Shown: in pieces, positions 20,684 to 39,034 of the stretch
How the letters are laid out: each line of letters begins with the position of its first letter
Numbering within the stretch: the first letter of the stretch is position 1
NCBI GenBank assembly: GCA_964528215.1
Contig: CAZGSA010000001.1
Span: 1 to 46,531, forward strand
Reading direction: 5' to 3'
Length of the DNA stretch: 46,531 nucleotides
Source: Candidatus Woesearchaeota archaeon
Lineage (GTDB): Archaea; Nanobdellota; Nanobdellia; Pacearchaeales; GW2011-AR1
Made by a program: the position numbers and the translations under genes
Notes under the pieces: generated by a model
Told to the model about the DNA's origin: nothing
Databases searched by the model: none
Seen by the model: the letters and a program-made list of their open reading frames with translations, nothing else

Positions 20684-20903
20684 CCAATACAAAGGTATTA
20701 ATATAATATAAATTTTAGAATTAAAAGAGATAAATAAAATTTAGAATATAATCCCTCAAGTTATTCAGGTAGAAGAATTAGGAAAATATTAAATTTAGTG
20801 TAAGGATTTAAGAGAATATAGAAAAAATCTATACATTATTATAAAGAAAACTAAGATTATTAAATGTAAGGAAATATCAAAAAAAATATCAGAATAAAAC
20901 AAA

Positions 20904-22445: not shown

Positions 22446-22578
22446 ATCAGATTTTTCAGATAAAAAATAGTCTTTTATTGAAGAAAGATTTTTTGAATAT
22501 GAGAAGGTTGAATTTTACTGAAAATTATTAATAATAATTTAACGAAAGCTTTTTATATAGTATTTTGTAATATATATT

Positions 22579-24012
22579 ATGAAAAAGTTAGTAATATTGT
22601 TAGGAATGTTAATGGTATTAGTTAGCACTTTAAATTTTGTTCTTGCAACTGAATTTACTGAACCAGGAACTTATGAAATTAAACCAGGAGATACTATAAC
22701 TTTTAATGATTTAACTGTTCAAGTTATAGATATAAAAACTAATGATAATAATGTTTCATGGGAGGAAGATTTTGGTAGGGAAATGGTTTATTTGGGTACA
22801 CCTGGATTAGGTTTTTATGTTTATGTCGATGAGAAAATGGAACTTGTTAAGGCAAAATATTCTAGTGAGAAACCAATAGCAGTTATTGTAAATTCTATTG
22901 ATATAGAAAATAAAAAAGCAGAAGTTCAATTTATTGATAACTATGATGATTGCATATTAGAATATAAGAAGAAATGTCAAGATTCTGATGTTTATTGGGA
23001 AGATAGTTGTGGAAGAACTGGAGAACTTTTAGAAGATTGTGACAGTGAAGGGTGCGAAACAACTTATGGTTCAGGAAAATGTATTAATCAAGGAAGCAAT
23101 TGTATTCCAAATTATACATCCTATTGTTATCATTTAGATGCTTATTGGAGAGATAGTTGTGGAAATGAAGGCGGTTTAAAAAAGGACTGTAGAGATGGAT
23201 GTTTAGAGGGGGAATGTAAAGAGAATATTTTAATAGAAAAAGATAGCCCAACATGTGGAGATGGAATATGCAATTTTAAGGATTTTGAATCAATTTATAT
23301 GGGTAGTAAAGATGGACAAGCACAATTTGAAGGGTGTTTTGAAGACTGTCCAAGTGATATAAATGACCCTCTTGACATGATTGTGGAATATCATATGAGG
23401 TATGATTCAGAAGGAAAAAGAGAGAATTCTGAAGATTATTATTATTTAAGAATAAATAACGAAGGTAATGAAAGAGTAGATATTGCTGATTTAATATTTG
23501 TTGTTACTGGAATAGATAGGGGAATAACCCAATATAATTTGTTCAATGAATTTTCTGGTGAAATTAACTCTGGAGAGAAAAAAGAATTTAAAGTAAAAAC
23601 TGGCTTTTCGGGCTCTTTGTCTGAAAGTTTATGTGGAGAAGAATTTTCATTTGCTCTAAGAAAGAAAGATACTGATAGACTATATCATTTTAATGGTGGT
23701 AAATTTTTAAAATGTGTTGATTCATATCCTGTAGAACCTGTTGAAAATAAACCTTTAGATATTCCAGAAGTAGATGAAAAGAAATTTTATGATTGTCAAG
23801 GTTGTGAATTAGATAAAAAATGTTATTCATTTGGATATAGAAAATCAAAAAAATATTGTTCTGATGAGGGAGATTTTAAACTTCAGTTAAAAACAGAAAG
23901 TACTTGTGAGAATAACTTTGAATGTGATAGTAATGTCTGTGTTGATGATAAGTGCGTAAGTGGTAGTTTAATATGGAAGATTATTAACTGGTTTAAAAGA
24001 TTATTTAGTTAA
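22579..24012 (+). CDS. Secreted cysteine-rich protein, unknown function
   Basis: 477-aa ORF. Signal peptide MKKLVILLGMLMVLVSTLNFVLA. Repeated C..D.YW.DSCG motif, a CGDGIC motif, and C-terminal Cys modules. Confidence 0.7.
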   Translation: MKKLVILLGMLMVLVSTLNFVLATEFTEPGTYEIKPGDTITFNDLTVQVIDIKTNDNNVSWEEDFGREMVYLGTPGLGFYVYVDEKMELVKAKYSSEKPIAVIVNSIDIENKKAEVQFIDNYDDCILEYKKKCQDSDVYWEDSCGRTGELLEDCDSEGCETTYGSGKCINQGSNCIPNYTSYCYHLDAYWRDSCGNEGGLKKDCRDGCLEGECKENILIEKDSPTCGDGICNFKDFESIYMGSKDGQAQFEGCFEDCPSDINDPLDMIVEYHMRYDSEGKRENSEDYYYLRINNEGNERVDIADLIFVVTGIDRGITQYNLFNEFSGEINSGEKKEFKVKTGFSGSLSESLCGEEFSFALRKKDTDRLYHFNGGKFLKCVDSYPVEPVENKPLDIPEVDEKKFYDCQGCELDKKCYSFGYRKSKKYCSDEGDFKLQLKTESTCENNFECDSNVCVDDKCVSGSLIWKIINWFKRLFS

Positions 24013-24112
24013 GATTATTTTTCTAACCCCTGCCTTTAAAATCAATTCATCATTCTGGATAATTTTTCATATAACCCTGACATTCTTTTGAACTTCTTGT
24101 GGTTGATAATTT

Positions 24113-24352
24113 TTATCTTTTCTTAGAAATCTTTTTAAGATTTCTTGCAAGAATTGCTCTTTCTTCTAAAAGTCTTGTTACTTTAATCTTTTTCTTCCCT
24201 ATTTTGGTAGGATTAGTAATTGTATCTCCAGCCCTTGCATTAATTATTGCATCTAACAAACTAACTGGAATCTTCTTATTATTAGGAATTTCTAATTGTT
24301 TATGCAAGGCCCCTTTCTTAACCCCTATCTTCTGAATCCATTTTATTGCCAT
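24113..24352 (-). CDS. Small basic protein, unknown function
   Basis: 79-aa Lys-rich ORF (KKGALHKQLEIP...). Preferred over the hydrophobic antisense ORF at 24099-24335. Confidence 0.5.
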   Translation of the reverse strand: MAIKWIQKIGVKKGALHKQLEIPNNKKIPVSLLDAIINARAGDTITNPTKIGKKKIKVTRLLEERAILARNLKKISKKR

Positions 24353-24560
24353 TTTAATTTCATCATTTAGTTATCTAAACTAGTAATTAAATATTTATAA
24401 ATTTATTGAGATATCAGCAAATATCAATAATCTAATGTAAATCTGTTCTCATCAGATAATTGCTAATCATCCACGCAACATAAATAAAAGATATCAGAAT
24501 CCCAGATTCATAACTTTTCTTCTAATAGATTATTAACATGTAGCACATCATCAGAATAAA

Positions 24561-25340
24561 TTACCATCTCCAGTTATAAGTTTGTGTTGCAAATTCATAT
24601 CTTGGTTTGTAATAATAATTATCATAATACTTATCTTCACACTCCCACTCTTCACACTCCCAATCAATACATTCATAGTCATAACATCTTCTCCCATAAT
24701 AAGAACTATAACCAGTATTCCAGCTAGAACATCTTTTTTCTACACAATTCCATTTCTCGCAAACACAATCTTTATAGTCCTGAGTTTTGTAAGGCTCTTT
24801 ATATCTCCAGTTTGAGTTATAGATAGGAACACTATAATCTGGTTTTTGACTATAATCTTTATAATCCTTTTTAGAATTTCCACTGCCTAATTTTAAAACA
24901 TACTGGTCTTTTTTTCTATTACTTGTATCCCATAAAAAATCCCAATCAATCCAGTTATAATCCTCATATCCATAATCATCCCCCCTATCTTCATATTTTT
25001 TATAATCTATCTCAACATCTCTTTTCTCTTTAATAGAAATTTTCTCTTTTTCATAACCTTCTTTATCCCTTTTTTCATATTCTGCTATTTTCTCATAATC
25101 ACTTGATTCTTTATAATAATCACTATTAGAGTAATCTTTATTATCCCAATTAAGATATATAGACTTAGAATTTCTTAAATTATCTGTGTCACTATATTTA
25201 TTATAATCTGTAGGAATTCCACAATCATAATAATATCCCCCTGTTCCCTTGCATAAATAAGCAGCAACAAAGTTAGTAGAAAATATAACTAGTATTAATC
25301 CAATGACTAAAATTAATAGAGAGAATAGATTTTTATTCAT
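24561..25340 (-). CDS. Secreted Tyr/Asp/Lys-rich protein with Cys/Trp-rich C-terminus
   Basis: 259-aa ORF. Signal peptide MNKNLFSLLILVIGLILVIFSTNFVAA. Low-complexity Y/D/K/E core. C-terminal WNCVEKRC and IDWECEEWECED. Confidence 0.65.
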   Translation of the reverse strand: MNKNLFSLLILVIGLILVIFSTNFVAAYLCKGTGGYYYDCGIPTDYNKYSDTDNLRNSKSIYLNWDNKDYSNSDYYKESSDYEKIAEYEKRDKEGYEKEKISIKEKRDVEIDYKKYEDRGDDYGYEDYNWIDWDFLWDTSNRKKDQYVLKLGSGNSKKDYKDYSQKPDYSVPIYNSNWRYKEPYKTQDYKDCVCEKWNCVEKRCSSWNTGYSSYYGRRCYDYECIDWECEEWECEDKYYDNYYYKPRYEFATQTYNWRW

Positions 25341-25415
25341 AAAAATAACAAAATTATGAAATATTTAAGCATTATTATATTGCAGGATAATAAGGGAAAA
25401 ATAATAAAATAAAAA

Positions 25416-25496
25416 CGCCACCAGTAGGAATCGAACCTACGAGCCCCGGAGGGCGAAGCTTAGCAAGCTCCTGCAATACCATTATGCGATGGTGGC
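25416..25496 (-). tRNA. tRNA-Ser (anticodon GCU)
   Basis: 81-nt cloverleaf. Acceptor GCCACCA/TGGTGGC, anticodon stem GGAGC/GCTTC with loop TTGCTAA, long variable arm GCCCTCCGGGGC, T-arm GTAGG-TTCGATT-CCTAC, discriminator G. TATA-like tatataaaaa lies 22-31 nt upstream and a T-tract follows downstream. Confidence 0.9.
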
Positions 25497-25602
25497 TTAG
25501 ATATTAAGATATTTTACTATATAAAAAGTTAATTGTTACAGATTTTTAAAGTTGATTTTTGTAATAAGTTAATTTTATTAAACCACTTTTCTTCAAAAGA
25601 CT

Positions 25603-26268
25603 ATGAAATTAGGAATCTTATTTTCAGGAGGCAAGGATAGTGTATTTGCAACTTATCTTGCAAAAAAATTAGGATATGAAGTCCCTTGTTTAATCAGTAT
25701 TATCTCTGAAAATAAAGAAAGTTACATGTTTCATACCCCTTCAATTTCAAAAGTTGAAAAACAAGCAAAAGCTATGAACATCCCTTTAATTCTAGAAAAA
25801 ACCAGGGGGAAAAAAGAAATTGAATTAAAAGACTTAGAAAGAGCAATTAAAATTGCTGTAGATAAATATCAAATTCAAGGGATTGTAACAGGAGCAATTG
25901 ATTCTATTTATCAATCCTCAAGAATTCAAAAGATTTGTAATAAATTAAAATTAGAATGTTTTAATCCCTTATGGCAAAAAGATCAAATAGAGCTTTTAGA
26001 GGATTTGATTAAAAACAAATTCAAGGTTATTATTTCAGGGGTTTTTGCATACCCTTTAACAAAAGAATGGTTGGGAAAACAAATAAACAAAGACTTTCTT
26101 ACCCAGATAAGAAAATTAAATGAAAAATATAAAATAAATCCTGCAGGAGAAGGTGGAGAATTTGAGACTTTTGTTCTTGATTGTCCTTTATTCAGAAAAT
26201 CTCTAAAAATAAAAAATAAAAAAATAACAGGTGAAAAAAATTCTTGGGTGATGGAGATAACAATATGA
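25603..26268 (+). CDS. dph6: Dph6/MJ0570-type PP-loop ATP pyrophosphatase (diphthine-ammonia ligase family)
   Basis: 221-aa ORF. PP-loop FSGGKDS and family hallmark GEGGEFETFVLD. Confidence 0.8.
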   Translation: MKLGILFSGGKDSVFATYLAKKLGYEVPCLISIISENKESYMFHTPSISKVEKQAKAMNIPLILEKTRGKKEIELKDLERAIKIAVDKYQIQGIVTGAIDSIYQSSRIQKICNKLKLECFNPLWQKDQIELLEDLIKNKFKVIISGVFAYPLTKEWLGKQINKDFLTQIRKLNEKYKINPAGEGGEFETFVLDCPLFRKSLKIKNKKITGEKNSWVMEITI

Positions 26269-26810
26269 AAAAAGTATTAATAGTAAATGTTTGTAAGGAG
26301 AAATTACATTATCTTGAATTTGTAAAACCTATTGAAGATATTTTAAAAAATAATAAGATTAAATTTAAAACTTTAATTTATAAAAATATTAATAAATCTC
26401 AATTAATTAAATACAATAAAATAATTATTAGTGGAACTTCTTTAAAAGATAATTATTTTCTAAAAGATATAGGCAAGTTTTCTTGGATTAAGGATACTGA
26501 GATACCTATTCTTGGAATTTGTTCTGGGATGCAGATAATAGGGTTAGAATTTGGAGGTAGATTAAAAAAGAAAACAGAAATAGGATTTTTTAAGGAAAAT
26601 TTTAAAAAAGATTTACTTGGATTAAAAAGAGAGCAAGAAGTTTACCATTTACACAATAATTATATAGAATTTACAGAACATTTTGAGATAATCTCTAAAA
26701 ATAATATAACTCAAGCAGTAAAACATAAATCAAAAGAAATATATGGGGTATTATTTCATCCAGAGGTTAGAAATAAGAAATTAATCTTAAATTTTATAGA
26801 TAAAAAATAG
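26265..26810 (+). CDS. Class I glutamine amidotransferase (GuaA subunit A-like)
   Basis: Catalytic Cys in ILGICSGMQIIG and His-Glu in LFHPEV. The ATG at 26265 overlaps the Dph6 stop (ATGA). The track start at 26244 is TTG. Confidence 0.75.
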   Translation: MKKVLIVNVCKEKLHYLEFVKPIEDILKNNKIKFKTLIYKNINKSQLIKYNKIIISGTSLKDNYFLKDIGKFSWIKDTEIPILGICSGMQIIGLEFGGRLKKKTEIGFFKENFKKDLLGLKREQEVYHLHNNYIEFTEHFEIISKNNITQAVKHKSKEIYGVLFHPEVRNKKLILNFIDKK

Positions 26811-26830
26811 GCTTTCTAGTTTTTATATCT

Positions 26831-26949
26831 CTTGCCAACCCTGAAGGGCGTGGCTTAGCAATCCTACTCCTCAAAGCAATTTCTTATTTTATCTATTCAC
26901 TAAATACTAAAATTGCTTTTGCTCGACAACACCACTATGCGATGTGGGC
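26831..26949 (-). ncRNA. Truncated tRNA-Ser-like element 1 (5' two-thirds of the tRNA, no T-arm; possible pseudogene)
   Basis: Minus strand reads GCCCACATCGCATAGTGGTGTTGTCGAGC, then a 60-nt hairpin module, then AGGATTGCTAAGCCACGCCCTTCAGGG. This is homologous to the tRNA-Ser from position 1 through the variable arm. A TATA-like box lies 26-31 nt upstream. Confidence 0.6.
26865..26924 (-). repeat. 60-nt hairpin module inserted in tRNA-like element 1
   Basis: GAGC-AAAAGCAATTTT...AAATTGCTTTG-AGGAGTA. The stem AAAGCAATT/AATTGCTTT encloses an AT-rich loop. The same module is present twice in element 3. Confidence 0.8.
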
Positions 26950-26964
26950 ATGTGAAGATAGATT

Positions 26965-26985
26965 ATTTTAAGAATTTAAAGGTTT
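26965..26985 (-). promoter_or_regulatory. Conserved BRE/TATA-like promoter motif of tRNA-like element 1
   Basis: The 21-mer attttaagaatttaaaggttt is identical at 28033-28053. The TATA core tttaaa lies 26-31 nt from the first G of the element. Confidence 0.55.
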
Positions 26986-27016
26986 GTTTTTTTATTATTT
27001 TATCCAAACCATCACC

Positions 27017-27211
27017 TTATCTACTAACTGCCCTCAACAACCTTATCTTTTCCTTACCCTCTTCAGTTTCAGCTAGCTTTGAATAAAATCTTCTTGCCAT
27101 GATTATCTGAGCATTAACAAAATCCTTAAATTTTGATTTCCATTTATCAGGATTATCACGAACATATTCTGCCCATCTTTCAATTTGTTCTGAATGTGTT
27201 TTATCTCTCAT
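27017..27211 (-). CDS. Small helical protein, partner of the NTase-fold protein
   Basis: 64-aa ORF whose ATG overlaps the stop of 27208-27783 by 4 nt (ATGA). Confidence 0.5.
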   Translation of the reverse strand: MRDKTHSEQIERWAEYVRDNPDKWKSKFKDFVNAQIIMARRFYSKLAETEEGKEKIRLLRAVSR

Positions 27212-27783
27212 TTTCTAAATCTCCTTATCTTTTCTTTAATAACCTCTATCTCATTCTCATCCAATTTATTTTTATATATTATCCTAAGATGTTTTGCATC
27301 TTCAACATCCTTATCTGAACCTAAATATTCCTCTTTAAATGCAATATTTGATTCTATGGTTGAAAAATAAACCTCAACTTCAGTAAGAGGAAGTTTGATT
27401 CTATTTTTAATTTGTTCTCTATCCAATTCATCTTTTGGAAATTTGATTTCCATTTCTGGTGGAAAATAGCCCTCTTCGTCCTCCACATATCTTACACTAT
27501 CTCCTTTATTAAGATAATCCACATAGATTACTTCTGGTTTTTCTGATTGCATGCAAGTAAATCCTTTTTCTTTTAGTTCTCTGTGCATTTTTAAAAATTC
27601 TTTTTCAGACATTTTTTCAATAATCATATCAATATCCTCAGTCCCTCTTGTCCTGCCATGAGCAATAGCAACAAAACCAGAACAGATAATATACCTCGCA
27701 TATTTATCAATAACTTCACAAAAGTCCTCTACAAATTTATCCAAAATGGTTCTATTATCTACTCTTCTTTCAAACTTTTCCAT
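27208..27783 (-). CDS. Minimal nucleotidyltransferase-fold protein (MNT/AbiEii-like)
   Basis: 191-aa ORF. SGFVAIAHGRTRGTEDIDMII fits the G-x(n)-D-x-D NTase signature. Confidence 0.6.
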   Translation of the reverse strand: MEKFERRVDNRTILDKFVEDFCEVIDKYARYIICSGFVAIAHGRTRGTEDIDMIIEKMSEKEFLKMHRELKEKGFTCMQSEKPEVIYVDYLNKGDSVRYVEDEEGYFPPEMEIKFPKDELDREQIKNRIKLPLTEVEVYFSTIESNIAFKEEYLGSDKDVEDAKHLRIIYKNKLDENEIEVIKEKIRRFRK

Positions 27784-27885
27784 AATATACTTAACTTCAA
27801 TATCTATATAATATTTTCTATAGAAAATTTTAGTAAACCTTCTTTAAAGATTTTCCCTTTACAATAAATTTAAAAATAAAAAATA

Positions 27886-28013
27886 GGAGCTTAGTTCTAA
27901 GAATCACCTTAATAGGTCCTTGGTTAGTTGGAAGAAAGTGATATTTTTTACTAACAGTTACAATTTTATGACCTATTTTAGCAACACCACTACAATACAT
28001 ATATAGTGTGGGC
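27886..28013 (-). ncRNA. Truncated tRNA-like element 2 (more degenerate; possible pseudogene)
   Basis: GCCCACAC...GTGGTGTTGC, then an unrelated hairpin (AATAGGTC at 27911-27918 pairs with GACCTATT at 27970-27977), then ...CTAAGCTCC followed by a T-tract. Shares the 21-nt promoter motif with element 1. Confidence 0.5.
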
Positions 28014-28032
28014 TTATTCTAGATTAATAAAA

Positions 28033-28053
28033 ATTTTAAGAATTTAAAGGTTT
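28033..28053 (-). promoter_or_regulatory. Conserved BRE/TATA-like promoter motif of tRNA-like element 2
   Basis: Identical 21-mer attttaagaatttaaaggttt, 20 nt upstream of the element's 5' end. Confidence 0.5.
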
Positions 28054-28110
28054 ACGCCCTAATATTTTCATTACATAAATTTTATATAATCTATTTAATA
28101 TATAACTATT

Positions 28111-28311
28111 ATGAACACTCTAAGCAGAACAATCACAGGAACTATTGCAATTATTTTAGGATTATTTTTAATTATACTTAGTATTTTTAAAGAATATTTC
28201 ATATTAATCTATGGAATACCCATTCTTATTATTGGGATTTTTATTCTTTTAAATAAAAAAGAAGATGATATAGAAACTATAAAAACTAAAAGAAAAGGAG
28301 GTGAAAAATAA
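28111..28311 (+). CDS. Small two-TM membrane protein
   Basis: 66-aa ORF. Its stop overlaps the YbjQ start (TAATG). GGAGGTG lies upstream of the next start. Confidence 0.55.
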   Translation: MNTLSRTITGTIAIILGLFLIILSIFKEYFILIYGIPILIIGIFILLNKKEDDIETIKTKRKGGEK

Positions 28312-28634
28312 TGGTAGATATAATTATTACAACTGGAAATGAAATTCCTGAAAAAAAGATTACTAAAATTCTTGGAGTTGTAAGAGGCAGCACTGTAAGG
28401 GCAAGAAATATTGGAAGGGATATTGGAGCTGGATTTAAAAATATTATCGGTGGAGAAGTCAAAACCTATACAGAGATGACAAAACAATCAAGAGATGAAG
28501 CATTTAATAGAATGGTTAATGAAGCCTTGGATTTAAAGGCTGATGCAGTTATTGGTGTTAGATTTACAACTTCTATGGTAATGGCAGGAGCTTCTGAAAT
28601 GCTTGCATATGGAACTGCAATTAAAATTAGTTAA
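28311..28634 (+). CDS. YbjQ/UPF0145 family protein
   Basis: 107-aa ORF. ILGVVRGSTVRARNIGRDIGAGFKNIIGGE...AVIGVRF...AYGTAIKI is typical of the family. Confidence 0.85.
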   Translation: MVDIIITTGNEIPEKKITKILGVVRGSTVRARNIGRDIGAGFKNIIGGEVKTYTEMTKQSRDEAFNRMVNEALDLKADAVIGVRFTTSMVMAGASEMLAYGTAIKIS

Positions 28635-28635
28635 T

Positions 28636-28725
28636 TTATTTCTTTAATTTTCTTTGCTTAGATTTTCTACGTTGAGCTTGCTTACTTCTTGCTTTAATTT
28701 TTCTTGTTACCCTATTTCTTGGCAT
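28636..28725 (-). CDS. 29-aa highly basic peptide (not in ORF track)
   Basis: MPRNRVTRKIKARSKQAQRRKSKQRKLKK. The ATG is preceded by AGGAGGAAAA. Lies directly downstream of tRNA-like element 3 on the same strand. Confidence 0.4.
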   Translation of the reverse strand: MPRNRVTRKIKARSKQAQRRKSKQRKLKK

Positions 28726-28776
28726 TTTTCCTCCTAAATTAAATTATTTTTAATTATTATTAATATTTTCTACTAT

Positions 28777-28953
28777 GGGCTCACTTTTGTACCCTTATTA
28801 GCAACCTTACTTCCCAAAGCAATTTCTTATTTTATCTATTTACTAAATACTAAAATTGCTTTTGCTCTACTCCCCAAAACAATTTCTTATTTTATCTATT
28901 TACTAAATACTAAAATTGCTTTTGCTCAACAATAACCATTATGCGATGCGGGC
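28777..28953 (-). ncRNA. Truncated tRNA-Ser-like element 3 with duplicated hairpin module (possible pseudogene)
   Basis: GCCCGCATCGCATAATGGTTATTGTT, then two 60-nt modules, then AGGTTGCTAATAAGGGTACAAAAGTGAGCCC. No T-arm or 3' acceptor strand. TATA-like tttaaa lies 28-33 nt upstream. Confidence 0.6.
28808..28927 (-). repeat. Tandem 2 x 60-nt hairpin module
   Basis: Units 28808-28867 and 28868-28927 differ at 2 positions. Homologous to 26865-26924. Confidence 0.85.
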
Positions 28954-29054
28954 TTATAGAAATATATAATATTTTATGATTTTAAATGTTTGTGTTTTAA
29001 ACATTTTTTCTACACAAGATTTAAAAAATAATTTATCTTAATCATCTTAATTTT

Positions 29055-30452
29055 ATGGAAATTAAATCACAAAAAGAGGCGGTTGAAAAACTTAGAGAAA
29101 AGACTAAGAAAATAAGCATAATTGAAGCAAGTGCCTATAGTGTTCATGAAGGTTTTGGTATAAAATACATAACCCCCTTTGCACTTGCAATTGGAAAAAA
29201 TAATCCTCAGATAAACACATTTATAGGTTTATTGACTTCTATTCCTTCTTTAATAGGAAATCTTTCACAACTCTTTACAATAAAGGCAATTGAAAATCAT
29301 AGGAGAAAGAATATACTAACCCTAGGGATTATTCTCCAGGCAATCATGTGGTGGGGAGTAATCTTTGCAGGAAGCTTGTTTTTTATTTTTAAACTTAATT
29401 CAAGTGTTGCTTTGACAGCCCTAATCCTGTTTTATACATTGCTTATTTTAATGGGTGCATTTGTAGGTCCTGCATGGGTATCTCTAATGAAAGAGATTGT
29501 TACTGATAAAGAAGGAAGTTATTTTGGAAACAGAAATAGGATTGCAGGAATCTTTGCAATAATCTCTGCATTGATTGCAGGATATCTTTTAGATTACCTA
29601 ACAACTAAGGATTTGTTCTTGGGATTTGTAATCCTATTTTTAATAGCTTTCCTCTTTAGATTTATTTCCGGGTTGCTCTTCACTATTCATTATGAGCCTA
29701 AACTAGAGTTTGATAAATCAAACTATTTTAGCTTTTACAAGTTTATAAAAAAGATTCCAAGTAGTAATTTTGGGAAGTTCAGTCTTTTTATCTCTTTATT
29801 TATCCTTGCAACTTCTATTGCTTCACCATTTTTTTCAGTTTATATGTTAAGAGACCTTGGGTTTAATTACTCAACCTGGATGATAATAACCTTGGCAGGA
29901 CCTTTATCTTCACTTTTTTTTATGCCAATGTGGGGATATTTTGCCGACAAGTTTGGAAATATTAAAATATTAAAAATAACAGGGTTAGTAATACCCACTA
30001 TTCCTATCTTATGGATTTTTTCAATCTTTTTTAATAACTCTTTTTACCTCTTGTTCTATCTAATAATCTTGGAATTCTTCTCAGGCTTTTTATGGGCAGG
30101 ATTTAATCTATCTTACGCAAACTTTATCTATGATGCAGTTACAAAGCAGAAGACAGCTCTTTGTTCAGCTTATTTTAATATTCTTCAAGGATTTGGAGTT
30201 TTTATAGGAGCAACATTAGGAGGATTTATATCTTCATTAAATATTTTTATTTTTGGTCTCAGTTCATTACTGTTTGTCTTTGCACTATCAGGTATAGCCA
30301 GATTTTTATCCTACATCCTGATTATATTTAGGATTAAAGAGATAAGAGATGTTAAACCTTTCAGGCTAGAAGAATTAAAGAAAATTCATATAAAACCTTT
30401 CCTAGATATTTTCAATCTTAAGATAATCCATCCAAGACCAAATGGGAATTAA
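29055..30452 (+). CDS. MFS-type transporter
   Basis: 465-aa ORF with about 12 hydrophobic helices arranged in two halves. Confidence 0.7.
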   Translation: MEIKSQKEAVEKLREKTKKISIIEASAYSVHEGFGIKYITPFALAIGKNNPQINTFIGLLTSIPSLIGNLSQLFTIKAIENHRRKNILTLGIILQAIMWWGVIFAGSLFFIFKLNSSVALTALILFYTLLILMGAFVGPAWVSLMKEIVTDKEGSYFGNRNRIAGIFAIISALIAGYLLDYLTTKDLFLGFVILFLIAFLFRFISGLLFTIHYEPKLEFDKSNYFSFYKFIKKIPSSNFGKFSLFISLFILATSIASPFFSVYMLRDLGFNYSTWMIITLAGPLSSLFFMPMWGYFADKFGNIKILKITGLVIPTIPILWIFSIFFNNSFYLLFYLIILEFFSGFLWAGFNLSYANFIYDAVTKQKTALCSAYFNILQGFGVFIGATLGGFISSLNIFIFGLSSLLFVFALSGIARFLSYILIIFRIKEIRDVKPFRLEELKKIHIKPFLDIFNLKIIHPRPNGN

Positions 30453-30539
30453 GGTATTTTAAAGATTTGTGTTTTAAATGCCATCAGATTTAAACAAATT
30501 TTCCATAAGACTTATATACTAATTTTTGTTAATTAAAAT

Positions 30540-30893
30540 ATGAAAAAGGTGATATTATTTTTATTAGTAGGAATATTTCTTATGAGTTTTGTAGTTGCAC
30601 AAGGACAAGGAATTCACAATCCTGGAACAGGAATTGAAAATCCAGAGATTAAAGAAGCAGGACAAGGAACTGGACAAGGATTAGAAACAGATACTCAAAA
30701 TCAAGGGTTAGATACTAATTTACAAAATCAAATCAGAGTTAGAGATGGAGATTATATAGGAGAAAAAGGACAACAAATAAAAATCCAGAAACAATCAAAT
30801 AATAGAGTAAGATTAGAAGTTGGTGGAATTGGGGTAAATTGTGATTGCAATATGACTCAGGAACAAATTCAGAATAAAACAAAATGGAAATAA
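30540..30893 (+). pseudogene. Truncated copy of the secreted Gln/Gly-rich protein gene, cut by the duplication junction
   Basis: Identical to 40520-41179 up to ...QIQNKT. It then reads KWK-stop across the junction, giving 117 aa instead of 219 aa. Confidence 0.85.
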
Positions 30894-32425: not shown

Positions 32426-32558
32426 ATCAGATTTTTCAGATAAAAAATAGTCTTTTATTGAAGAAAGATTTTTTGAATATGAGAAGGTTGAATTTTACTG
32501 AAAATTATTAATAATAATTTAACGAAAGCTTTTTATATAGTATTTTGTAATATATATT

Positions 32559-33992: not shown

Positions 33993-34092
33993 GATTATTT
34001 TTCTAACCCCTGCCTTTAAAATCAATTCATCATTCTGGATAATTTTTCATATAACCCTGACATTCTTTTGAACTTCTTGTGGTTGATAATTT

Positions 34093-34332
34093 TTATCTTT
34101 TCTTAGAAATCTTTTTAAGATTTCTTGCAAGAATTGCTCTTTCTTCTAAAAGTCTTGTTACTTTAATCTTTTTCTTCCCTATTTTGGTAGGATTAGTAAT
34201 TGTATCTCCAGCCCTTGCATTAATTATTGCATCTAACAAACTAACTGGAATCTTCTTATTATTAGGAATTTCTAATTGTTTATGCAAGGCCCCTTTCTTA
34301 ACCCCTATCTTCTGAATCCATTTTATTGCCAT
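34093..34332 (-). CDS. Small basic protein (copy 2)
   Basis: Identical to 24113-24352 at +9,980. Confidence 0.5.
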   Translation of the reverse strand: MAIKWIQKIGVKKGALHKQLEIPNNKKIPVSLLDAIINARAGDTITNPTKIGKKKIKVTRLLEERAILARNLKKISKKR

Positions 34333-35395: not shown

Positions 35396-35476
35396 CGCCA
35401 CCAGTAGGAATCGAACCTACGAGCCCCGGAGGGCGAAGCTTAGCAAGCTCCTGCAATACCATTATGCGATGGTGGC
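35396..35476 (-). tRNA. tRNA-Ser (anticodon GCU), copy 2
   Basis: Identical to 25416-25496 at +9,980. Confidence 0.9.
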
Positions 35477-35582
35477 TTAGATATTAAGATATTTTACTAT
35501 ATAAAAAGTTAATTGTTACAGATTTTTAAAGTTGATTTTTGTAATAAGTTAATTTTATTAAACCACTTTTCTTCAAAAGACT

Positions 35583-36248
35583 ATGAAATTAGGAATCTTA
35601 TTTTCAGGAGGCAAGGATAGTGTATTTGCAACTTATCTTGCAAAAAAATTAGGATATGAAGTCCCTTGTTTAATCAGTATTATCTCTGAAAATAAAGAAA
35701 GTTACATGTTTCATACCCCTTCAATTTCAAAAGTTGAAAAACAAGCAAAAGCTATGAACATCCCTTTAATTCTAGAAAAAACCAGGGGGAAAAAAGAAAT
35801 TGAATTAAAAGACTTAGAAAGAGCAATTAAAATTGCTGTAGATAAATATCAAATTCAAGGGATTGTAACAGGAGCAATTGATTCTATTTATCAATCCTCA
35901 AGAATTCAAAAGATTTGTAATAAATTAAAATTAGAATGTTTTAATCCCTTATGGCAAAAAGATCAAATAGAGCTTTTAGAGGATTTGATTAAAAACAAAT
36001 TCAAGGTTATTATTTCAGGGGTTTTTGCATACCCTTTAACAAAAGAATGGTTGGGAAAACAAATAAACAAAGACTTTCTTACCCAGATAAGAAAATTAAA
36101 TGAAAAATATAAAATAAATCCTGCAGGAGAAGGTGGAGAATTTGAGACTTTTGTTCTTGATTGTCCTTTATTCAGAAAATCTCTAAAAATAAAAAATAAA
36201 AAAATAACAGGTGAAAAAAATTCTTGGGTGATGGAGATAACAATATGA
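35583..36248 (+). CDS. dph6: Dph6/MJ0570-type PP-loop ATP pyrophosphatase (copy 2)
   Basis: Identical to 25603-26268 at +9,980. Confidence 0.8.
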   Translation: MKLGILFSGGKDSVFATYLAKKLGYEVPCLISIISENKESYMFHTPSISKVEKQAKAMNIPLILEKTRGKKEIELKDLERAIKIAVDKYQIQGIVTGAIDSIYQSSRIQKICNKLKLECFNPLWQKDQIELLEDLIKNKFKVIISGVFAYPLTKEWLGKQINKDFLTQIRKLNEKYKINPAGEGGEFETFVLDCPLFRKSLKIKNKKITGEKNSWVMEITI

Positions 36249-36790
36249 AAAAAGTATTAATAGTAAATGTTTGTAAGGAGAAATTACATTATCTTGAATT
36301 TGTAAAACCTATTGAAGATATTTTAAAAAATAATAAGATTAAATTTAAAACTTTAATTTATAAAAATATTAATAAATCTCAATTAATTAAATACAATAAA
36401 ATAATTATTAGTGGAACTTCTTTAAAAGATAATTATTTTCTAAAAGATATAGGCAAGTTTTCTTGGATTAAGGATACTGAGATACCTATTCTTGGAATTT
36501 GTTCTGGGATGCAGATAATAGGGTTAGAATTTGGAGGTAGATTAAAAAAGAAAACAGAAATAGGATTTTTTAAGGAAAATTTTAAAAAAGATTTACTTGG
36601 ATTAAAAAGAGAGCAAGAAGTTTACCATTTACACAATAATTATATAGAATTTACAGAACATTTTGAGATAATCTCTAAAAATAATATAACTCAAGCAGTA
36701 AAACATAAATCAAAAGAAATATATGGGGTATTATTTCATCCAGAGGTTAGAAATAAGAAATTAATCTTAAATTTTATAGATAAAAAATAG
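36245..36790 (+). CDS. Class I glutamine amidotransferase (copy 2)
   Basis: Identical to 26265-26810 at +9,980. Confidence 0.75.
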   Translation: MKKVLIVNVCKEKLHYLEFVKPIEDILKNNKIKFKTLIYKNINKSQLIKYNKIIISGTSLKDNYFLKDIGKFSWIKDTEIPILGICSGMQIIGLEFGGRLKKKTEIGFFKENFKKDLLGLKREQEVYHLHNNYIEFTEHFEIISKNNITQAVKHKSKEIYGVLFHPEVRNKKLILNFIDKK

Positions 36791-36810
36791 GCTTTCTAGT
36801 TTTTATATCT

Positions 36811-36929
36811 CTTGCCAACCCTGAAGGGCGTGGCTTAGCAATCCTACTCCTCAAAGCAATTTCTTATTTTATCTATTCACTAAATACTAAAATTGCTTTT
36901 GCTCGACAACACCACTATGCGATGTGGGC
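36811..36929 (-). ncRNA. Truncated tRNA-Ser-like element 1, copy 2
   Basis: Identical to 26831-26949 at +9,980. Hairpin module at 36845-36904. Confidence 0.6.
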
Positions 36930-36996
36930 ATGTGAAGATAGATTATTTTAAGAATTTAAAGGTTTGTTTTTTTATTATTTTATCCAAACCATCACC

Positions 36997-37191
36997 TTAT
37001 CTACTAACTGCCCTCAACAACCTTATCTTTTCCTTACCCTCTTCAGTTTCAGCTAGCTTTGAATAAAATCTTCTTGCCATGATTATCTGAGCATTAACAA
37101 AATCCTTAAATTTTGATTTCCATTTATCAGGATTATCACGAACATATTCTGCCCATCTTTCAATTTGTTCTGAATGTGTTTTATCTCTCAT
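36997..37191 (-). CDS. Small helical partner of the NTase-fold protein (copy 2)
   Basis: Identical to 27017-27211 at +9,980. Confidence 0.5.
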   Translation of the reverse strand: MRDKTHSEQIERWAEYVRDNPDKWKSKFKDFVNAQIIMARRFYSKLAETEEGKEKIRLLRAVSR

Positions 37192-37763
37192 TTTCTAAAT
37201 CTCCTTATCTTTTCTTTAATAACCTCTATCTCATTCTCATCCAATTTATTTTTATATATTATCCTAAGATGTTTTGCATCTTCAACATCCTTATCTGAAC
37301 CTAAATATTCCTCTTTAAATGCAATATTTGATTCTATGGTTGAAAAATAAACCTCAACTTCAGTAAGAGGAAGTTTGATTCTATTTTTAATTTGTTCTCT
37401 ATCCAATTCATCTTTTGGAAATTTGATTTCCATTTCTGGTGGAAAATAGCCCTCTTCGTCCTCCACATATCTTACACTATCTCCTTTATTAAGATAATCC
37501 ACATAGATTACTTCTGGTTTTTCTGATTGCATGCAAGTAAATCCTTTTTCTTTTAGTTCTCTGTGCATTTTTAAAAATTCTTTTTCAGACATTTTTTCAA
37601 TAATCATATCAATATCCTCAGTCCCTCTTGTCCTGCCATGAGCAATAGCAACAAAACCAGAACAGATAATATACCTCGCATATTTATCAATAACTTCACA
37701 AAAGTCCTCTACAAATTTATCCAAAATGGTTCTATTATCTACTCTTCTTTCAAACTTTTCCAT
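37188..37763 (-). CDS. Minimal nucleotidyltransferase-fold protein (copy 2)
   Basis: Identical to 27208-27783 at +9,980. Confidence 0.6.
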   Translation of the reverse strand: MEKFERRVDNRTILDKFVEDFCEVIDKYARYIICSGFVAIAHGRTRGTEDIDMIIEKMSEKEFLKMHRELKEKGFTCMQSEKPEVIYVDYLNKGDSVRYVEDEEGYFPPEMEIKFPKDELDREQIKNRIKLPLTEVEVYFSTIESNIAFKEEYLGSDKDVEDAKHLRIIYKNKLDENEIEVIKEKIRRFRK

Positions 37764-37865
37764 AATATACTTAACTTCAATATCTATATAATATTTTCTA
37801 TAGAAAATTTTAGTAAACCTTCTTTAAAGATTTTCCCTTTACAATAAATTTAAAAATAAAAAATA

Positions 37866-37993
37866 GGAGCTTAGTTCTAAGAATCACCTTAATAGGTCCT
37901 TGGTTAGTTGGAAGAAAGTGATATTTTTTACTAACAGTTACAATTTTATGACCTATTTTAGCAACACCACTACAATACATATATAGTGTGGGC
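37866..37993 (-). ncRNA. Truncated tRNA-like element 2, copy 2
   Basis: Identical to 27886-28013 at +9,980. Confidence 0.5.
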
Positions 37994-38090
37994 TTATTCT
38001 AGATTAATAAAAATTTTAAGAATTTAAAGGTTTACGCCCTAATATTTTCATTACATAAATTTTATATAATCTATTTAATATATAACTATT

Positions 38091-38291
38091 ATGAACACTC
38101 TAAGCAGAACAATCACAGGAACTATTGCAATTATTTTAGGATTATTTTTAATTATACTTAGTATTTTTAAAGAATATTTCATATTAATCTATGGAATACC
38201 CATTCTTATTATTGGGATTTTTATTCTTTTAAATAAAAAAGAAGATGATATAGAAACTATAAAAACTAAAAGAAAAGGAGGTGAAAAATAA
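38091..38291 (+). CDS. Small two-TM membrane protein (copy 2)
   Basis: Identical to 28111-28311 at +9,980. Confidence 0.55.
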   Translation: MNTLSRTITGTIAIILGLFLIILSIFKEYFILIYGIPILIIGIFILLNKKEDDIETIKTKRKGGEK

Positions 38292-38614
38292 TGGTAGATA
38301 TAATTATTACAACTGGAAATGAAATTCCTGAAAAAAAGATTACTAAAATTCTTGGAGTTGTAAGAGGCAGCACTGTAAGGGCAAGAAATATTGGAAGGGA
38401 TATTGGAGCTGGATTTAAAAATATTATCGGTGGAGAAGTCAAAACCTATACAGAGATGACAAAACAATCAAGAGATGAAGCATTTAATAGAATGGTTAAT
38501 GAAGCCTTGGATTTAAAGGCTGATGCAGTTATTGGTGTTAGATTTACAACTTCTATGGTAATGGCAGGAGCTTCTGAAATGCTTGCATATGGAACTGCAA
38601 TTAAAATTAGTTAA
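38291..38614 (+). CDS. YbjQ/UPF0145 family protein (copy 2)
   Basis: Identical to 28311-28634 at +9,980. Confidence 0.85.
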   Translation: MVDIIITTGNEIPEKKITKILGVVRGSTVRARNIGRDIGAGFKNIIGGEVKTYTEMTKQSRDEAFNRMVNEALDLKADAVIGVRFTTSMVMAGASEMLAYGTAIKIS

Positions 38615-38615
38615 T

Positions 38616-38705
38616 TTATTTCTTTAATTTTCTTTGCTTAGATTTTCTACGTTGAGCTTGCTTACTTCTTGCTTTAATTTTTCTTGTTACCCTATTTCTT
38701 GGCAT
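38616..38705 (-). CDS. 29-aa highly basic peptide (copy 2)
   Basis: Identical to 28636-28725 at +9,980. Confidence 0.4.
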   Translation of the reverse strand: MPRNRVTRKIKARSKQAQRRKSKQRKLKK

Positions 38706-38756
38706 TTTTCCTCCTAAATTAAATTATTTTTAATTATTATTAATATTTTCTACTAT

Positions 38757-38933
38757 GGGCTCACTTTTGTACCCTTATTAGCAACCTTACTTCCCAAAGC
38801 AATTTCTTATTTTATCTATTTACTAAATACTAAAATTGCTTTTGCTCTACTCCCCAAAACAATTTCTTATTTTATCTATTTACTAAATACTAAAATTGCT
38901 TTTGCTCAACAATAACCATTATGCGATGCGGGC
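38757..38933 (-). ncRNA. Truncated tRNA-Ser-like element 3, copy 2
   Basis: Identical to 28777-28953 at +9,980. The 2 x 60-nt module lies at 38788-38907. Confidence 0.6.
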
Positions 38934-39034
38934 TTATAGAAATATATAATATTTTATGATTTTAAATGTTTGTGTTTTAAACATTTTTTCTACACAAGAT
39001 TTAAAAAATAATTTATCTTAATCATCTTAATTTT

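What the first reader, a model, noticed from the sequence alone, without database searches (positions are those of the whole stretch)
25416..28953. Array of one intact tRNA-Ser(GCU) plus three promoter-bearing, T-arm-less tRNA-Ser-like elements separating 1-3-gene cassettes
An intact tRNA-Ser(GCU) lies at 25416-25496 on the minus strand. On its 5' side, at roughly 1-kb intervals, three elements begin like the same tRNA: GCCCACATCGCATAGTGGTG (5' end at 26949), GCCCACAC..GTGGTGTTGC (28013) and GCCCGCATCGCATAATGGTTA (28953). Elements 1 and 3 keep the anticodon-loop sequence TTGCTAA and a variable-arm-like hairpin (GCCCTTCAGGG and GGGTACAAAAGTGAGCCC). None has a T-arm or a 3' acceptor strand, and the anticodon stem can no longer pair. 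Each has a TATA-like box about 26-35 nt upstream of its first G. They delimit small cassettes: Dph6 plus GATase; NTase plus a 64-aa ORF; and the TM protein, YbjQ and the 29-aa peptide. I see three readings. (a) They are footprints of serial site-specific integration or recombination at tRNA-Ser, each event duplicating the promoter and the 5' two-thirds of the gene. (b) They are 5' halves of split tRNAs, as described for Nanoarchaeum equitans, with the 3' halves encoded elsewhere. (c) They are tRNA-derived ncRNAs or leaders for the minus-strand genes downstream of them. I cannot decide between these from this window. The whole array is present twice because of the 9,980-bp duplication.
Basis: partly seen in the sequence, partly recalled or inferred. 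Interest (0 to 1): 0.75.

Follow-up and report, generated by a model that had tools for sequence, protein, structure and literature searches.

The report
Recombination scars upstream of tRNA-Ser gene
Three promoter-bearing front halves of a serine tRNA gene sit upstream of the intact gene in a tiny (Pacearchaeota-type) archaeon; they are most likely scars left when foreign DNA repeatedly recombined into the gene's anticodon loop, which is one proposed way for split tRNA genes to arise.

Summary
An intact tRNA-Ser(GCU) lies at 25416-25496(-). Three co-oriented, promoter-bearing, T-arm-less copies start at 26949, 28013 and 28953, and all are repeated by a perfect 9,980-bp tandem duplication. A 60-nt hairpin unit occurs once in element 1 and twice in element 3. 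In elements 2 and 3, tRNA homology stops exactly after the anticodon loop TTGCTAA and is followed by a conserved ~35-nt tail.

The same architecture recurs in relatives. All five loci carrying this tRNA have at least one co-oriented upstream copy: 7 on one 17-kb contig, 3, 1, 1, and the window. None was found in about 85 loci without it. There are three tail types shared between genomes. Left halves and tails are shuffled exactly at TTGCTAA. The left halves vary as functional tRNA-Ser genes of different lineages do.

In one relative a tyrosine recombinase gene ends 29 nt before the tRNA, and an orphan 3' half beginning at TTGCTAA follows it. No 3' halves, complementary leaders or cloverleaves were found.

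Split-tRNA halves are unlikely. An active cassette platform or functional small RNAs are not excluded.

The parts
25416..25496 (-). Intact tRNA-Ser(GCU), at the 3' end of the array. Sequence: GCCACCA TC GCAT AATGGTA TTGC A GGAGC TTGCTAA GCTTC, variable arm, T-arm, TGGTGGC G.
   Evidence: ARAGORN; Rfam RF00005, 54 bits.
25497..25535 (-). Promoter of the intact tRNA (TTTTTATATA box about 21-30 nt upstream of +1). There is no 5' leader.
   Evidence: Read from the sequence; aligned with the element promoters.
26800..26949 (-). Element 1. It has tRNA positions 1-26 (GCCCACATCGCATAGTGGTGTTGTC), then the 60-nt unit, then TTGCTAA (26855-26861). After that come a degenerate anticodon-stem 3' strand plus a variable-arm hairpin (GCCAC GCCCTTCAGGGTTGGC) and a T-run. 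There is no T-arm and no 3' acceptor strand.
26950..26990 (-). Element 1 promoter (AAACCTTTAAATTCTTAAAAT). These 21 nt are identical to the element 2 promoter.
26862..26924 (-). 60-nt hairpin unit inside element 1 (GAGCAAAAGCAATTT...AAATTGCTTTGAGGAGTAGGA). It replaces the 5' strand of the anticodon stem.
   Evidence: Repeat family D1; hairpin in the fold; homologues at L132 1621-1669, 6451-6501 and 5564-5584.
27943..28013 (-). Element 2. It has GCCCACA, a decayed D-arm, GTGGTG, TTGCTAA (27978-27984) and a type-B tail, AATAGGTCATAAAATTGTAACTGTTAGTAAAAAA (27943-27977).
   Evidence: Covariance model R1, 70 bits. The tail is 92% identical over 25 nt to the L019 element; alignment A3.
28014..28055 (-). 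Element 2 promoter (AAACCTTTAAATTCTTAAAAT).
28765..28953 (-). Element 3. It has tRNA positions 1-26 (GCCCGCATCGCATAATGGTTATTGTT), two tandem 60-nt units (28868-28927 and 28805-28867), TTGCTAA (28798-28804) and a type-C tail, TAAGGGTACAAAAGTGAGCCCATAGTAGAAAAT (28765-28797).
   Evidence: The tail is 92% identical over 25 nt to L131 element E_c. A same-species contig, L012, has only one unit.
28954..28995 (-). Element 3 promoter (AAACATTTAAAATCATAAAAT).
25603..26810 (+). Segment between element 1 and the tRNA: Dph6-like diphthine-ammonia ligase (25603-26268) and a class-I glutamine amidotransferase (26244-26810). This gene pair is conserved in many other genomic contexts.
   Evidence: Pfam; same pair elsewhere.
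27017..27783 (-). Segment between elements 2 and 1: a 191-aa nucleotidyltransferase-like protein (27208-27783) and a 64-aa DUF8150 protein (27017-27211). The pair is conserved and co-oriented with the elements.
28111..28725 (.). Segment between elements 3 and 2: a 66-aa membrane protein (28111-28311, +), YbjQ (28311-28634, +) and a 29-aa basic protein (28636-28725, -, with a GGAGG Shine-Dalgarno).
   Evidence: A homologue of the 29-aa protein is at L132 1459-1548.
35396..38975 (-). Second, identical copy of the whole array: tRNA at 35396-35476, and elements with 5' ends at 36929, 37993 and 38933. It was created by the 9,980-bp tandem duplication.

Best explanation
The three elements are junction scars of the attL type, left by repeated site-specific recombination of incoming DNA into the anticodon loop (TTGCTAA) of the tRNA-Ser(GCU) gene.

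In this model the incoming DNA carries a site made of three parts: a promoter plus tRNA-Ser 5' half, the TTGCTAA heptamer, and a ~35-nt 'tail'. Strand exchange within TTGCTAA has two results. The resident promoter and 5' half become fused to the incoming tail; that is the scar. The incoming promoter and 5' half become joined to the resident 3' half, which restores an intact gene.

Repetition of this process, and probably secondary recombination at old scars, stacks scars and the DNA between them on the 5' side of the gene, all in its orientation.

The scars keep strong promoters and then decay. Decay includes hairpin insertions such as the 60-nt unit, loss of the D-arm in element 2, and slippage of the unit in element 3. 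Some scars may secondarily drive downstream genes.

Shown by the data: the architecture, the linkage to the tRNA, the junction position, the modular shuffling, and a recombinase next to the tRNA in one relative.

Inferred, not shown: the recombination reaction itself, the identity of the enzyme acting in this genome, and the order of events.
For: 1. Linkage. Every locus holding a tRNA-Ser(GCU) gene has at least one co-oriented partial copy upstream. These are the window, L019, L033, L131 and L132 (L135's upstream side is cut by the contig end). The regex and the covariance model found none in about 85 other loci, about 600 kb.

2. Layout. On the complete 17-kb contig L131, seven elements on one strand end with the intact tRNA at 11816-11896, as in the window.

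3. Junction. tRNA homology ends exactly after TTGCTAA in 11 elements. Three tail families (A, B, C) are each shared between genomes, at 92-100% identity over 19-25 nt.

4. Modularity. The L131 trio shares one left part (..GGTATTGCACCGGCTTGCTAA) joined to tails A, B and C.

5. Origin of the left parts. They look like snapshots of working tRNAs. Mean pairwise difference per site is 0.26 in the acceptor strand, 0.03 in the D-arm and 0.52 in the anticodon-stem strand. Five intact tRNA-Ser genes give 0.23, 0.06 and 0.58.
   - Some left parts fit their own host's 3' half fully (7/7 acceptor and 5/5 anticodon-stem pairs): L019e, L131_4133 and L131_5972.
   - L131 E_c fits the L132 tRNA fully.

6. Recombinase. 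In L135 a PF00589 tyrosine recombinase (400 aa) stops 29 nt before the tRNA-Ser(GCU). An orphan 3' half that begins at TTGCTAA lies about 55 nt downstream.

7. Precedent. In Caldiarchaeum, a 5' fragment of tRNA-Thr lies 1.8 kb upstream of the restored gene, separated from it by an insert with a putative recombinase (PMC3293823).

8. Plasticity of the region. The unit copy number differs between assemblies, and one strain variant breaks inside ybjQ.
Against: - No integrase or integrase remnant is present in the window, L131 or L132.
- No free attP-bearing element was found in IMG/VR.
- The DNA between scars includes conserved housekeeping-like pairs (Dph6+GATase; NTase+DUF8150) that occur in other contexts elsewhere. 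The 'cargo' is therefore not obviously foreign, and rearrangement between scars has to be invoked.
- The window's own scars (GCCCACA, GCCCGCA) form only 5/7 acceptor pairs with the present 3' half.
- In L131 the scars nearest the tRNA are of the foreign type. Three of them are stacked with no cargo between them. A simple one-way serial model does not predict either point.
- Tails, promoters and an inserted hairpin are conserved across genomes. The hairpin shows at least one clear compensatory change, though only 3 sequences are available. This could equally mean that the sites are still functional.
Confidence: 0.6

Rival explanations
1. An active, integron-like cassette platform. Each 'promoter + tRNA 5' half + TTGCTAA + tail' would be a live recombination site, the equivalent of attC. 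The intact tRNA's anticodon loop would be the primary insertion site. Cassettes of the form tail - genes - promoter - 5' half would be inserted, excised and reshuffled by a recombinase encoded elsewhere. The built-in promoters would express the next cassette.
For: - Homology ends sharply on both sides of each ~120-nt site, while the DNA in between differs.
- Left and right arms recombine freely at TTGCTAA.
- 'Empty' units exist in the L131 trio.
- The inserted hairpins keep their structure, with a compensatory change.
- The next gene downstream is co-oriented in 10 of 13 cases (p=0.046).
Against: - No recombinase lies next to any array except in L135.
- No excised circles or presence/absence variants bounded by the sites were seen among the same-species contigs.
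- Several sites are visibly decayed: the element 2 D-arm, element 1, and L132_5540.
- The segments contain conserved core-like gene pairs.
Confidence: 0.13
2. Functional tRNA-half-like small RNAs or 5' leaders. The elements would be transcribed from their strong promoters and act as RNAs, for example as regulators, decoys or stabilising leaders for the downstream minus-strand genes.
For: - All elements keep a well-placed BRE/TATA box.
- The D-arm, the anticodon loop and the tails are conserved across genomes.
- In the window the 29-aa gene has no other recognisable promoter between element 3 and its Shine-Dalgarno sequence.
Against: - No conserved secondary structure could be found for the tails; the candidate pairings fail in type A (inspection of alignment A3).
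- Orthologues of the NTase and of the 29-aa gene in other genomes have ordinary promoters and no tRNA-like leader.
- The strict linkage to, and orientation with, the tRNA-Ser gene is not expected for independent sRNA genes.
- There is no Rfam match.
Confidence: 0.12
3. Ordinary local duplication of the tRNA gene followed by random truncation and decay, giving pseudogenes, with no site-specific recombination involved.
For: - Tandem duplication is active here: the 9,980-bp repeat and the tandem 60-nt unit.
- Element 1 keeps tRNA similarity up to the variable arm.
- Elements 1 and 2 share a 21-nt promoter block.
Against: - Random truncation would not end at the same nucleotide (after TTGCTAA) in 11 copies from four genomes.
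- It would not attach three conserved tail families.
- It would not produce left halves that match the tRNA-Ser genes of other lineages.
Confidence: 0.1
4. 5' halves of split (trans-spliced) tRNA-Ser(GCU) genes, as in Nanoarchaeum equitans, with the 3' halves encoded elsewhere in the genome.
For: - Each has its own promoter.
- The end at position 37/38 is the classic split site.
- A non-tRNA tail follows that could pair with a leader.
- An orphan 3' half starting at the same position exists in L135.
- The host is a DPANN archaeon.
Against: - An intact tRNA-Ser(GCU) gene with the same anticodon is present in every locus.
- No orphan T-arm, no matching 3' acceptor strand and no sequence complementary to any tail was found in about 700 kb of loci, including contigs that carry 3-7 elements.
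- The window elements have lost the anticodon-stem strand or the D-arm.
- Up to seven different 5' halves for one anticodon is implausible in a genome that, going by complete genomes of this phylum, carries about 35 tRNA genes (median).
Confidence: 0.04

Closest known systems
tRNA-Thr(GGU) 5' fragment plus 1.8-kb recombinase-bearing insert in 'Candidatus Caldiarchaeum subterraneum' (Sugahara et al. 2012, PLoS One, PMC3293823)
   Same: A 5' fragment of a tRNA gene, with its upstream sequence, sits upstream of and co-oriented with a restored gene. The inserted DNA supplies a new 5' part. The locus is heterogeneous in the population. The authors explain it by a mobile element recombining into the tRNA gene.
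   Different: - That case is a single event with a junction at positions 24-27; here the arrays hold 3-7 copies and the junction is at the anticodon loop (37/38).
- Here there are three conserved ~35-nt tail families shared between genomes, and hairpin insertions.
- No recombinase lies inside the arrays.
- The lineage differs (Pacearchaeota-type DPANN) and so does the tRNA.
Tyrosine-recombinase integrative elements that target the anticodon loop of tRNA genes (sublocation classes of Williams 2002; archaeal SSV-type and pNOB8-type integrases). This comparison rests on my own knowledge.
   Same: Crossover occurs in the 7-nt anticodon loop. Partial tRNA copies lie in direct orientation and mark the ends of the inserted DNA. 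An integrase gene abuts the tRNA in relative L135, where an orphan 3' half starts at the loop.
   Different: Classical elements carry the 3' part of the tRNA and leave 3'-half repeats. Here the duplicated part is the promoter plus the 5' half. Scars pile up in arrays. Some units carry no cargo. No split SSV-type int gene was found across the sites.
Split tRNA genes of Nanoarchaeum equitans (Randau et al. 2005)
   Same: Promoter-bearing 5' half genes end at position 37/38 and are followed by a non-tRNA extension. Promoter spacing is leaderless. The host is a DPANN archaeon.
   Different: An intact gene for the same tRNA is present. No 3' halves or complementary leaders were found. Many of the halves are damaged. 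The tails are AT-rich, about 35 nt long and of only three types, rather than being unique to each tRNA.
Integron cassette arrays (attC sites, including the archaeal integrons of Ghaly et al. 2022, PMC9668308)
   Same: Discrete repeated sites separate segments of 0-3 genes. The sites are composite, with left and right arms exchanged at a fixed point. Cargo-less units exist.
   Different: There is no IntI next to the array. The sites are derived from a tRNA and carry promoters; they do not have the R''-L''/L'-R' architecture. The array is anchored on a tRNA gene rather than on attI. No activity has been shown.

Membership tests
Functional tRNA gene, with or without introns | A complete cloverleaf (acceptor stem, D-arm, anticodon arm, T-arm) that is recovered by tRNA models after any introns are removed. 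| tested here: not met
   Rfam RF00005 at E<=10 and ARAGORN in intron mode find only 25416-25496 and its duplicate. No T-arm or 3' acceptor strand exists for the elements.
Split tRNA 5'-half gene (N. equitans type) | An own promoter and a 5' half that ends at position 37/38. | tested here: met
   BRE/TATA boxes lie 25-32 nt upstream. In elements 2 and 3 homology to the tRNA ends after TTGCTAA. Element 1 runs on into the variable arm.
Split tRNA 5'-half gene (N. equitans type) | A matching 3'-half gene whose leader is complementary to the 5' half's trailing sequence and whose acceptor and anticodon strands pair with the 5' half. | tested here: inconclusive
   None was found in the 46.5-kb window or in about 700 kb of related loci. 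The rest of this genome could not be searched.
Split tRNA 5'-half gene (N. equitans type) | The split gene is the only source of that tRNA, and the half keeps an intact D-arm and anticodon-stem strand. | tested here: not met
   An intact tRNA-Ser(GCU) is present. The element 2 D-arm has decayed. In elements 1 and 3 the 60-nt unit replaces the anticodon-stem strand.
att-type scar of a tRNA-targeting integrative element | A partial tRNA copy in direct orientation near the intact gene. | tested here: met
   This holds in the window and in 4 other loci. No such copy occurs in loci without tRNA-Ser(GCU).
att-type scar of a tRNA-targeting integrative element | A fixed crossover sublocation, with the same junction in independent copies. 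| tested here: met
   The junction falls after TTGCTAA in 11 elements. The L135 orphan 3' half begins at TTGCTAA.
att-type scar of a tRNA-targeting integrative element | An integrase gene within or next to the inserted DNA. | tested here: not met
   None is present in the window, L131 or L132. The feature is met only in relative L135, where a PF00589 protein ends 29 nt before the tRNA.
att-type scar of a tRNA-targeting integrative element | Foreign cargo between the repeats, and an empty site in related strains. | tested here: inconclusive
   The segments hold conserved gene pairs that are also found elsewhere. L132 lacks the trio + 64-aa + NYN2 block that L131 has between the NYN gene and the tRNA. 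No same-species empty site was seen.
Integron | An IntI-type integrase next to attI, and attC sites with R/L boxes. | tested here: not met
   No integrase lies in or beside the arrays. No Rfam family matches the sites. The sites are tRNA-derived.

The most novel reading that the evidence does not exclude
The sites are not dead scars. They would be the working recombination sites of a tRNA-anchored, integron-like gene-cassette system in DPANN archaea. Each site would be a promoter-bearing tRNA-Ser 5' half plus a ~35-nt tail, exchanged at the anticodon-loop heptamer. Cassettes, including empty ones, would be captured, reshuffled and expressed from the built-in tRNA promoters. A by-product would be free-standing, promoter-bearing 5' and 3' tRNA halves, the raw material for split tRNA genes.
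Probability: 0.13. Interest if true: 0.85.

Novelty: new variant of a known kind. Interest (0 to 1): 0.55.

Why it matters
How split and disrupted tRNA genes arise in Archaea is a long-standing question. One proposal is that mobile DNA recombines into tRNA genes, but the evidence so far is essentially a single Caldiarchaeum locus.

These arrays add a lineage within DPANN, the group that includes Nanoarchaeum. In it, promoter-bearing 5' halves ending at position 37/38 are produced again and again at one tRNA gene. In one relative a 3' half beginning at the same point is seen as well. These are the intermediates that the mobile-DNA model requires.

The finding also marks the tRNA-Ser(GCU) locus as the variable-gene hotspot of these very small genomes.

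It gives annotators a concrete signature: TTGCTAA followed by one of three tails. That signature separates scars from tRNA genes, from pseudogenes and from genuine split halves.

Tried and rejected
- **Intron-containing or permuted tRNAs.** Rejected: no cloverleaf, no T-arm and no 3' strand.
- **Known RNA families.** Rfam gave nothing but tRNA, both at gathering thresholds and at E<=10.
- **The 60-nt unit as a dispersed repeat.** The unit was not found in viral contigs.
- **attP on a virus or plasmid.** Six IMG/VR scans with tail and junction patterns found only chance hits and phage-borne bacterial tRNA-Ser genes.
- **Element 2 as a conserved leader of the NTase operon.** NTase orthologues in L096 and L097 have no such leader.
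- **A split SSV-type integrase gene reading through the sites.** No open frame longer than about 80 codons crosses any element on either strand. tblastn with the L135 integrase finds no remnants.
- **Tails as the 3' strand of the anticodon stem, a BHB partner, or a conserved hairpin.** The candidate pairings are not in register and fail in tail type A (manual analysis of A3).
- **Tails as coding sequence.** Only about 14 codons are shared, and the frame is closed in type A.
- **K-turn or C/D-box reading of the unit.** This was only inspected by eye and is not supported.

Full report
**1. What is in the window**

The window is AT-rich (about 28% GC) and chromosomal. It carries an archaeal-type D-aminoacyl-tRNA deacylase and Sua5. 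It also carries a KaiC-like ATPase, secretion/pilus-type ATPase and membrane components (T2SSE/T2SSF), a hydrogenase and PFOR. Close protein homologues are labelled Pacearchaeota, Nanoarchaeota or Woesearchaeota.

ARAGORN and Rfam find one tRNA, tRNA-Ser(GCU), at 25416-25496(-), and a second copy at 35396-35476. The second copy exists because 20889-30882 is repeated at 30869-40862, at offset 9,980, without a single mismatch.

- The shared start GCCCRCATCGCATA is far above chance: 6 matches against 0.66 expected, with 0 of 100 shuffles reaching 6.
- Each has a BRE/TATA-like box 25-32 nt upstream. Elements 1 and 2 share an identical 21-nt promoter block.
- None has a T-arm or a 3' acceptor strand.
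- No tRNA model recovers a cloverleaf, even at E<=10 or with introns allowed.

**2.

- Elements 1 and 3 contain a 60-nt hairpin unit: GAGCAAAAGCAATTT, a loop, then AAATTGCTTTG. It occurs once in element 1 and twice in tandem in element 3, and it sits where the 5' strand of the anticodon stem should be. A same-species ENA contig has only one unit in element 3.
- Element 2 also carries the anticodon-loop heptamer.
- In elements 2 and 3, similarity to the tRNA stops exactly after TTGCTAA. It is followed by a ~35-nt tail that proved to be conserved in other genomes.
- Element 1 differs. After TTGCTAA it keeps a degenerate anticodon-stem 3' strand and a variable-arm hairpin, and only then diverges.

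**3. Relatives**

Anchoring on neighbouring proteins (Dph6, the NTase-like protein and a NYN protein) brought in about 100 loci from metagenomes.

Partial copies of the same kind appear in every locus that holds a tRNA-Ser(GCU) gene whose upstream side is available:
- L019 has one copy, about 180 nt upstream of the tRNA.
- L033 has one.
- L131 (the same contig as L104, complete at 17 kb) has seven copies on one strand, with the intact tRNA at the 3' end of the series.
- L132 has three upstream of the tRNA.

A junction regex and a covariance model built from the elements found none in about 85 loci (about 600 kb) that lack this tRNA. For the other tRNAs in these loci, no 5' copies were seen.

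**4. Anatomy of the family**

A clean member has three parts:
- a promoter;
- tRNA-Ser positions 1-38, of the form [acceptor strand]TCGCATARTGGTATTGCA[5-nt anticodon-stem strand]TTGCTAA;
- one of three tails:
  - type A: TACAGTAC..GGCAC.ATACTAGAAATG;
  - type B: GATTGACCACAAAAGTGTAACAGTTAGTAGAAAA (element 2 and the L019 element belong here);
  - type C: ACTAGGCCTCAAAATTGGGCCCATAGTAGAAAAT (element 3 belongs here).

Homology between copies stops sharply at the end of the tail.

Left and right parts are combined freely. Three adjacent L131 elements share the same left part but carry tails A, B and C, with nothing but the next promoter between them.

The left parts vary the way working tRNA-Ser genes vary between lineages. 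Stems change and the D-arm does not. Per-site differences are 0.26, 0.03 and 0.52 for the acceptor strand, D-arm and anticodon-stem strand of the elements. Five intact genes give 0.23, 0.06 and 0.58.

Several left parts pair perfectly with their own host's 3' half: L019e, L131_4133 and L131_5972. Others pair perfectly with the tRNA of a different genome: the L131 trio carries the L132-type strand CCGGC, and L131 E_c fits the L132 tRNA at all 7 acceptor and all 5 anticodon-stem pairs.

Some members carry hairpin insertions.
- A two-hairpin D-loop insert is shared by L019e, L131 E_a and L132_6372. Its first hairpin keeps pairing through at least one clear G-C to A-U double change, but only three sequences are available.
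- The 60-nt unit is shared by the window and L132.

Other members are visibly decayed: the element 2 D-arm, L132_5540 and L033e.

**5. A recombinase**

In L135 a 400-aa tyrosine recombinase (PF00589, E=2.5e-10) ends 29 nt before an intact tRNA-Ser(GCU). About 55 nt after that tRNA lies an orphan 3' half. Its tRNA homology begins at TTGCTAA and runs through the variable arm, the T-arm and TGGCGGC-G. The contig ends 1.7 kb upstream of the recombinase gene, so the expected 5' scar cannot be checked.

No recombinase or remnant of one is present in the window, L131 or L132. No free element carrying a tail was found in IMG/VR.

**6. Interpretation**

Six observations point to site-specific recombination in the anticodon loop:
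- strict linkage to one tRNA gene;
- constant orientation;
- position on the 5' side of the gene;
- a junction fixed at the anticodon-loop heptamer, for both the 5' scars and the one 3' scar;
- modular exchange of arms at that heptamer;
- left arms that are snapshots of functional tRNAs, some native and some foreign.

The incoming DNA would supply a promoter and a 5' half, and the displaced promoter and 5' half would stay behind fused to the incoming tail. This is the mirror image of classical tRNA-targeting elements, which duplicate the 3' half. It has one published precedent, in Caldiarchaeum (PMC3293823). I give it 0.6.

Weak points of this reading:
- The arrays contain no integrase.
- The DNA between scars includes conserved pairs that occur in other contexts in other genomes (Dph6+GATase; NTase+DUF8150), so rearrangement between scars must be assumed.
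- The window's scars pair poorly (5/7) with the present 3' half.
- L131 has cargo-less units, and its foreign-type scars lie nearest the gene.

Those same points, together with the conserved tails, promoters and hairpins, keep two functional readings open. One is an active integron-like cassette platform (0.13). The other is tRNA-half-like RNAs or leaders (0.12).

On the leader reading, the next gene downstream is co-oriented in 10 of 13 cases (p=0.046). In the window the 29-aa gene has no recognisable promoter other than element 3's, whereas its L132 orthologue has a plain promoter. Co-option of scar promoters is therefore plausible.

Plain duplication and decay (0.10) does not explain the fixed junction or the shared tails.

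Split-tRNA halves (0.04) are disfavoured by the intact gene, by the absence of 3' halves or complementary leaders in any locus, and by the damage to the window copies. The rest of this genome could not be searched.

**7. Novelty and verdict**

Scars at tRNA genes are well known, and a single 5'-fragment case has been published. The following are new as far as the searched literature and Rfam show:
- arrays of promoter-bearing 5' halves ending at position 37/38;
- three tail families conserved across genomes;
- hairpin insertions;
- cargo-less units;
- recurrence across Pacearchaeota-type genomes.

I classify the finding as a new variant of a known kind, of moderate interest. It bears directly on how split tRNA genes can originate in DPANN archaea.

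Noticed in passing
window 20889-30882 and 30869-40862: A perfect tandem duplication of 9,980 bp with 0 mismatches and about 14 bp of junction overlap. At the junction a 117-aa ORF (30540-30893) is a truncated form of the 219-aa ORF at 40520-41179. No independent contig of the same species crosses the junction, so it is either a very recent event or an assembly artefact.
   Followed up: partly
window 25497-25535, 26950-26990, 28014-28055, 28954-28995; also L019, L131, L132, L135: The tRNA-Ser gene and all partial copies have their BRE/TATA box about 25-32 nt upstream of mature position +1. This implies leaderless tRNA transcription, as in Nanoarchaeum equitans, which lacks RNase P. No RNase P RNA was looked for.
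   Followed up: no
window 28636-28725 (-); L132 1459-1548: A 29-aa very basic protein (MPRNRVTRKIKARSKQAQRRKSKQRKLKK) with a strong GGAGG Shine-Dalgarno sequence is conserved in another genome (84% nucleotide identity over 132 nt). It may be a small ribosomal-type protein. It has no Pfam match.
   Followed up: partly
window 27017-27783 (-): A 191-aa nucleotidyltransferase-fold protein (GRTRGTEDIDMII motif, no Pfam hit) and a 64-aa DUF8150 protein form a conserved two-gene unit. The 191-aa protein has more than 1,500 homologues, the best 120 of them at 62-85% identity, in Pacearchaeota and Woesearchaeota, in many genomic contexts. Its function is unknown.
   Followed up: partly
window 28805-28927 versus L012 1960-2019: The 60-nt hairpin unit in element 3 is present twice in the window but only once in an ENA contig of the same species. 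A Logan contig breaks inside it. This is either copy-number polymorphism or assembly collapse.
   Followed up: yes
window ~28526-28619 versus L014 1-260: A JGI contig of the same species is identical across elements 1 and 2. It then accumulates 23 mismatches in the last ~90 nt of ybjQ and continues into unrelated sequence with a different downstream gene. This is a strain-level recombination breakpoint inside the array region.
   Followed up: partly
L135 1688-3107: A tyrosine recombinase gene ends 29 nt before tRNA-Ser(GCU). It is followed by an orphan tRNA-Ser 3' half that starts at the anticodon loop. The orphan's anticodon-stem strand CCATG is complementary to the CATGG of element L131_3577.
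   Followed up: yes
L085 5256 and 9971; L082 9767 and 9662: The last 15 nt of tRNA-His (L085) recur 4.7 kb downstream, flanking genes for a 919-aa unknown protein and a dockerin-domain protein. The last 15 nt of tRNA-Ala (L082) recur about 100 nt downstream. These look like classical 3'-side att repeats. No integrase was seen in L085.
   Followed up: partly
L131 9721-11774; L132 2192-2737 and 5804-6346; L135 9997-10551: Genes for NYN (LabA/DUF88-like) nuclease-domain proteins flank the tRNA-Ser arrays in three genomes, and an acetyl-CoA-synthetase-type gene lies downstream. This is conserved synteny around a variable core. Any functional link to the elements is untested.
   Followed up: no
L097 493-951: An IS200/IS605-type Y1 transposase gene lies about 720 nt upstream of an NTase orthologue, with one gene in between. 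The downstream intergenic region (L097 2440-3030) is full of repeated GC-rich hairpin-like blocks.
   Followed up: no
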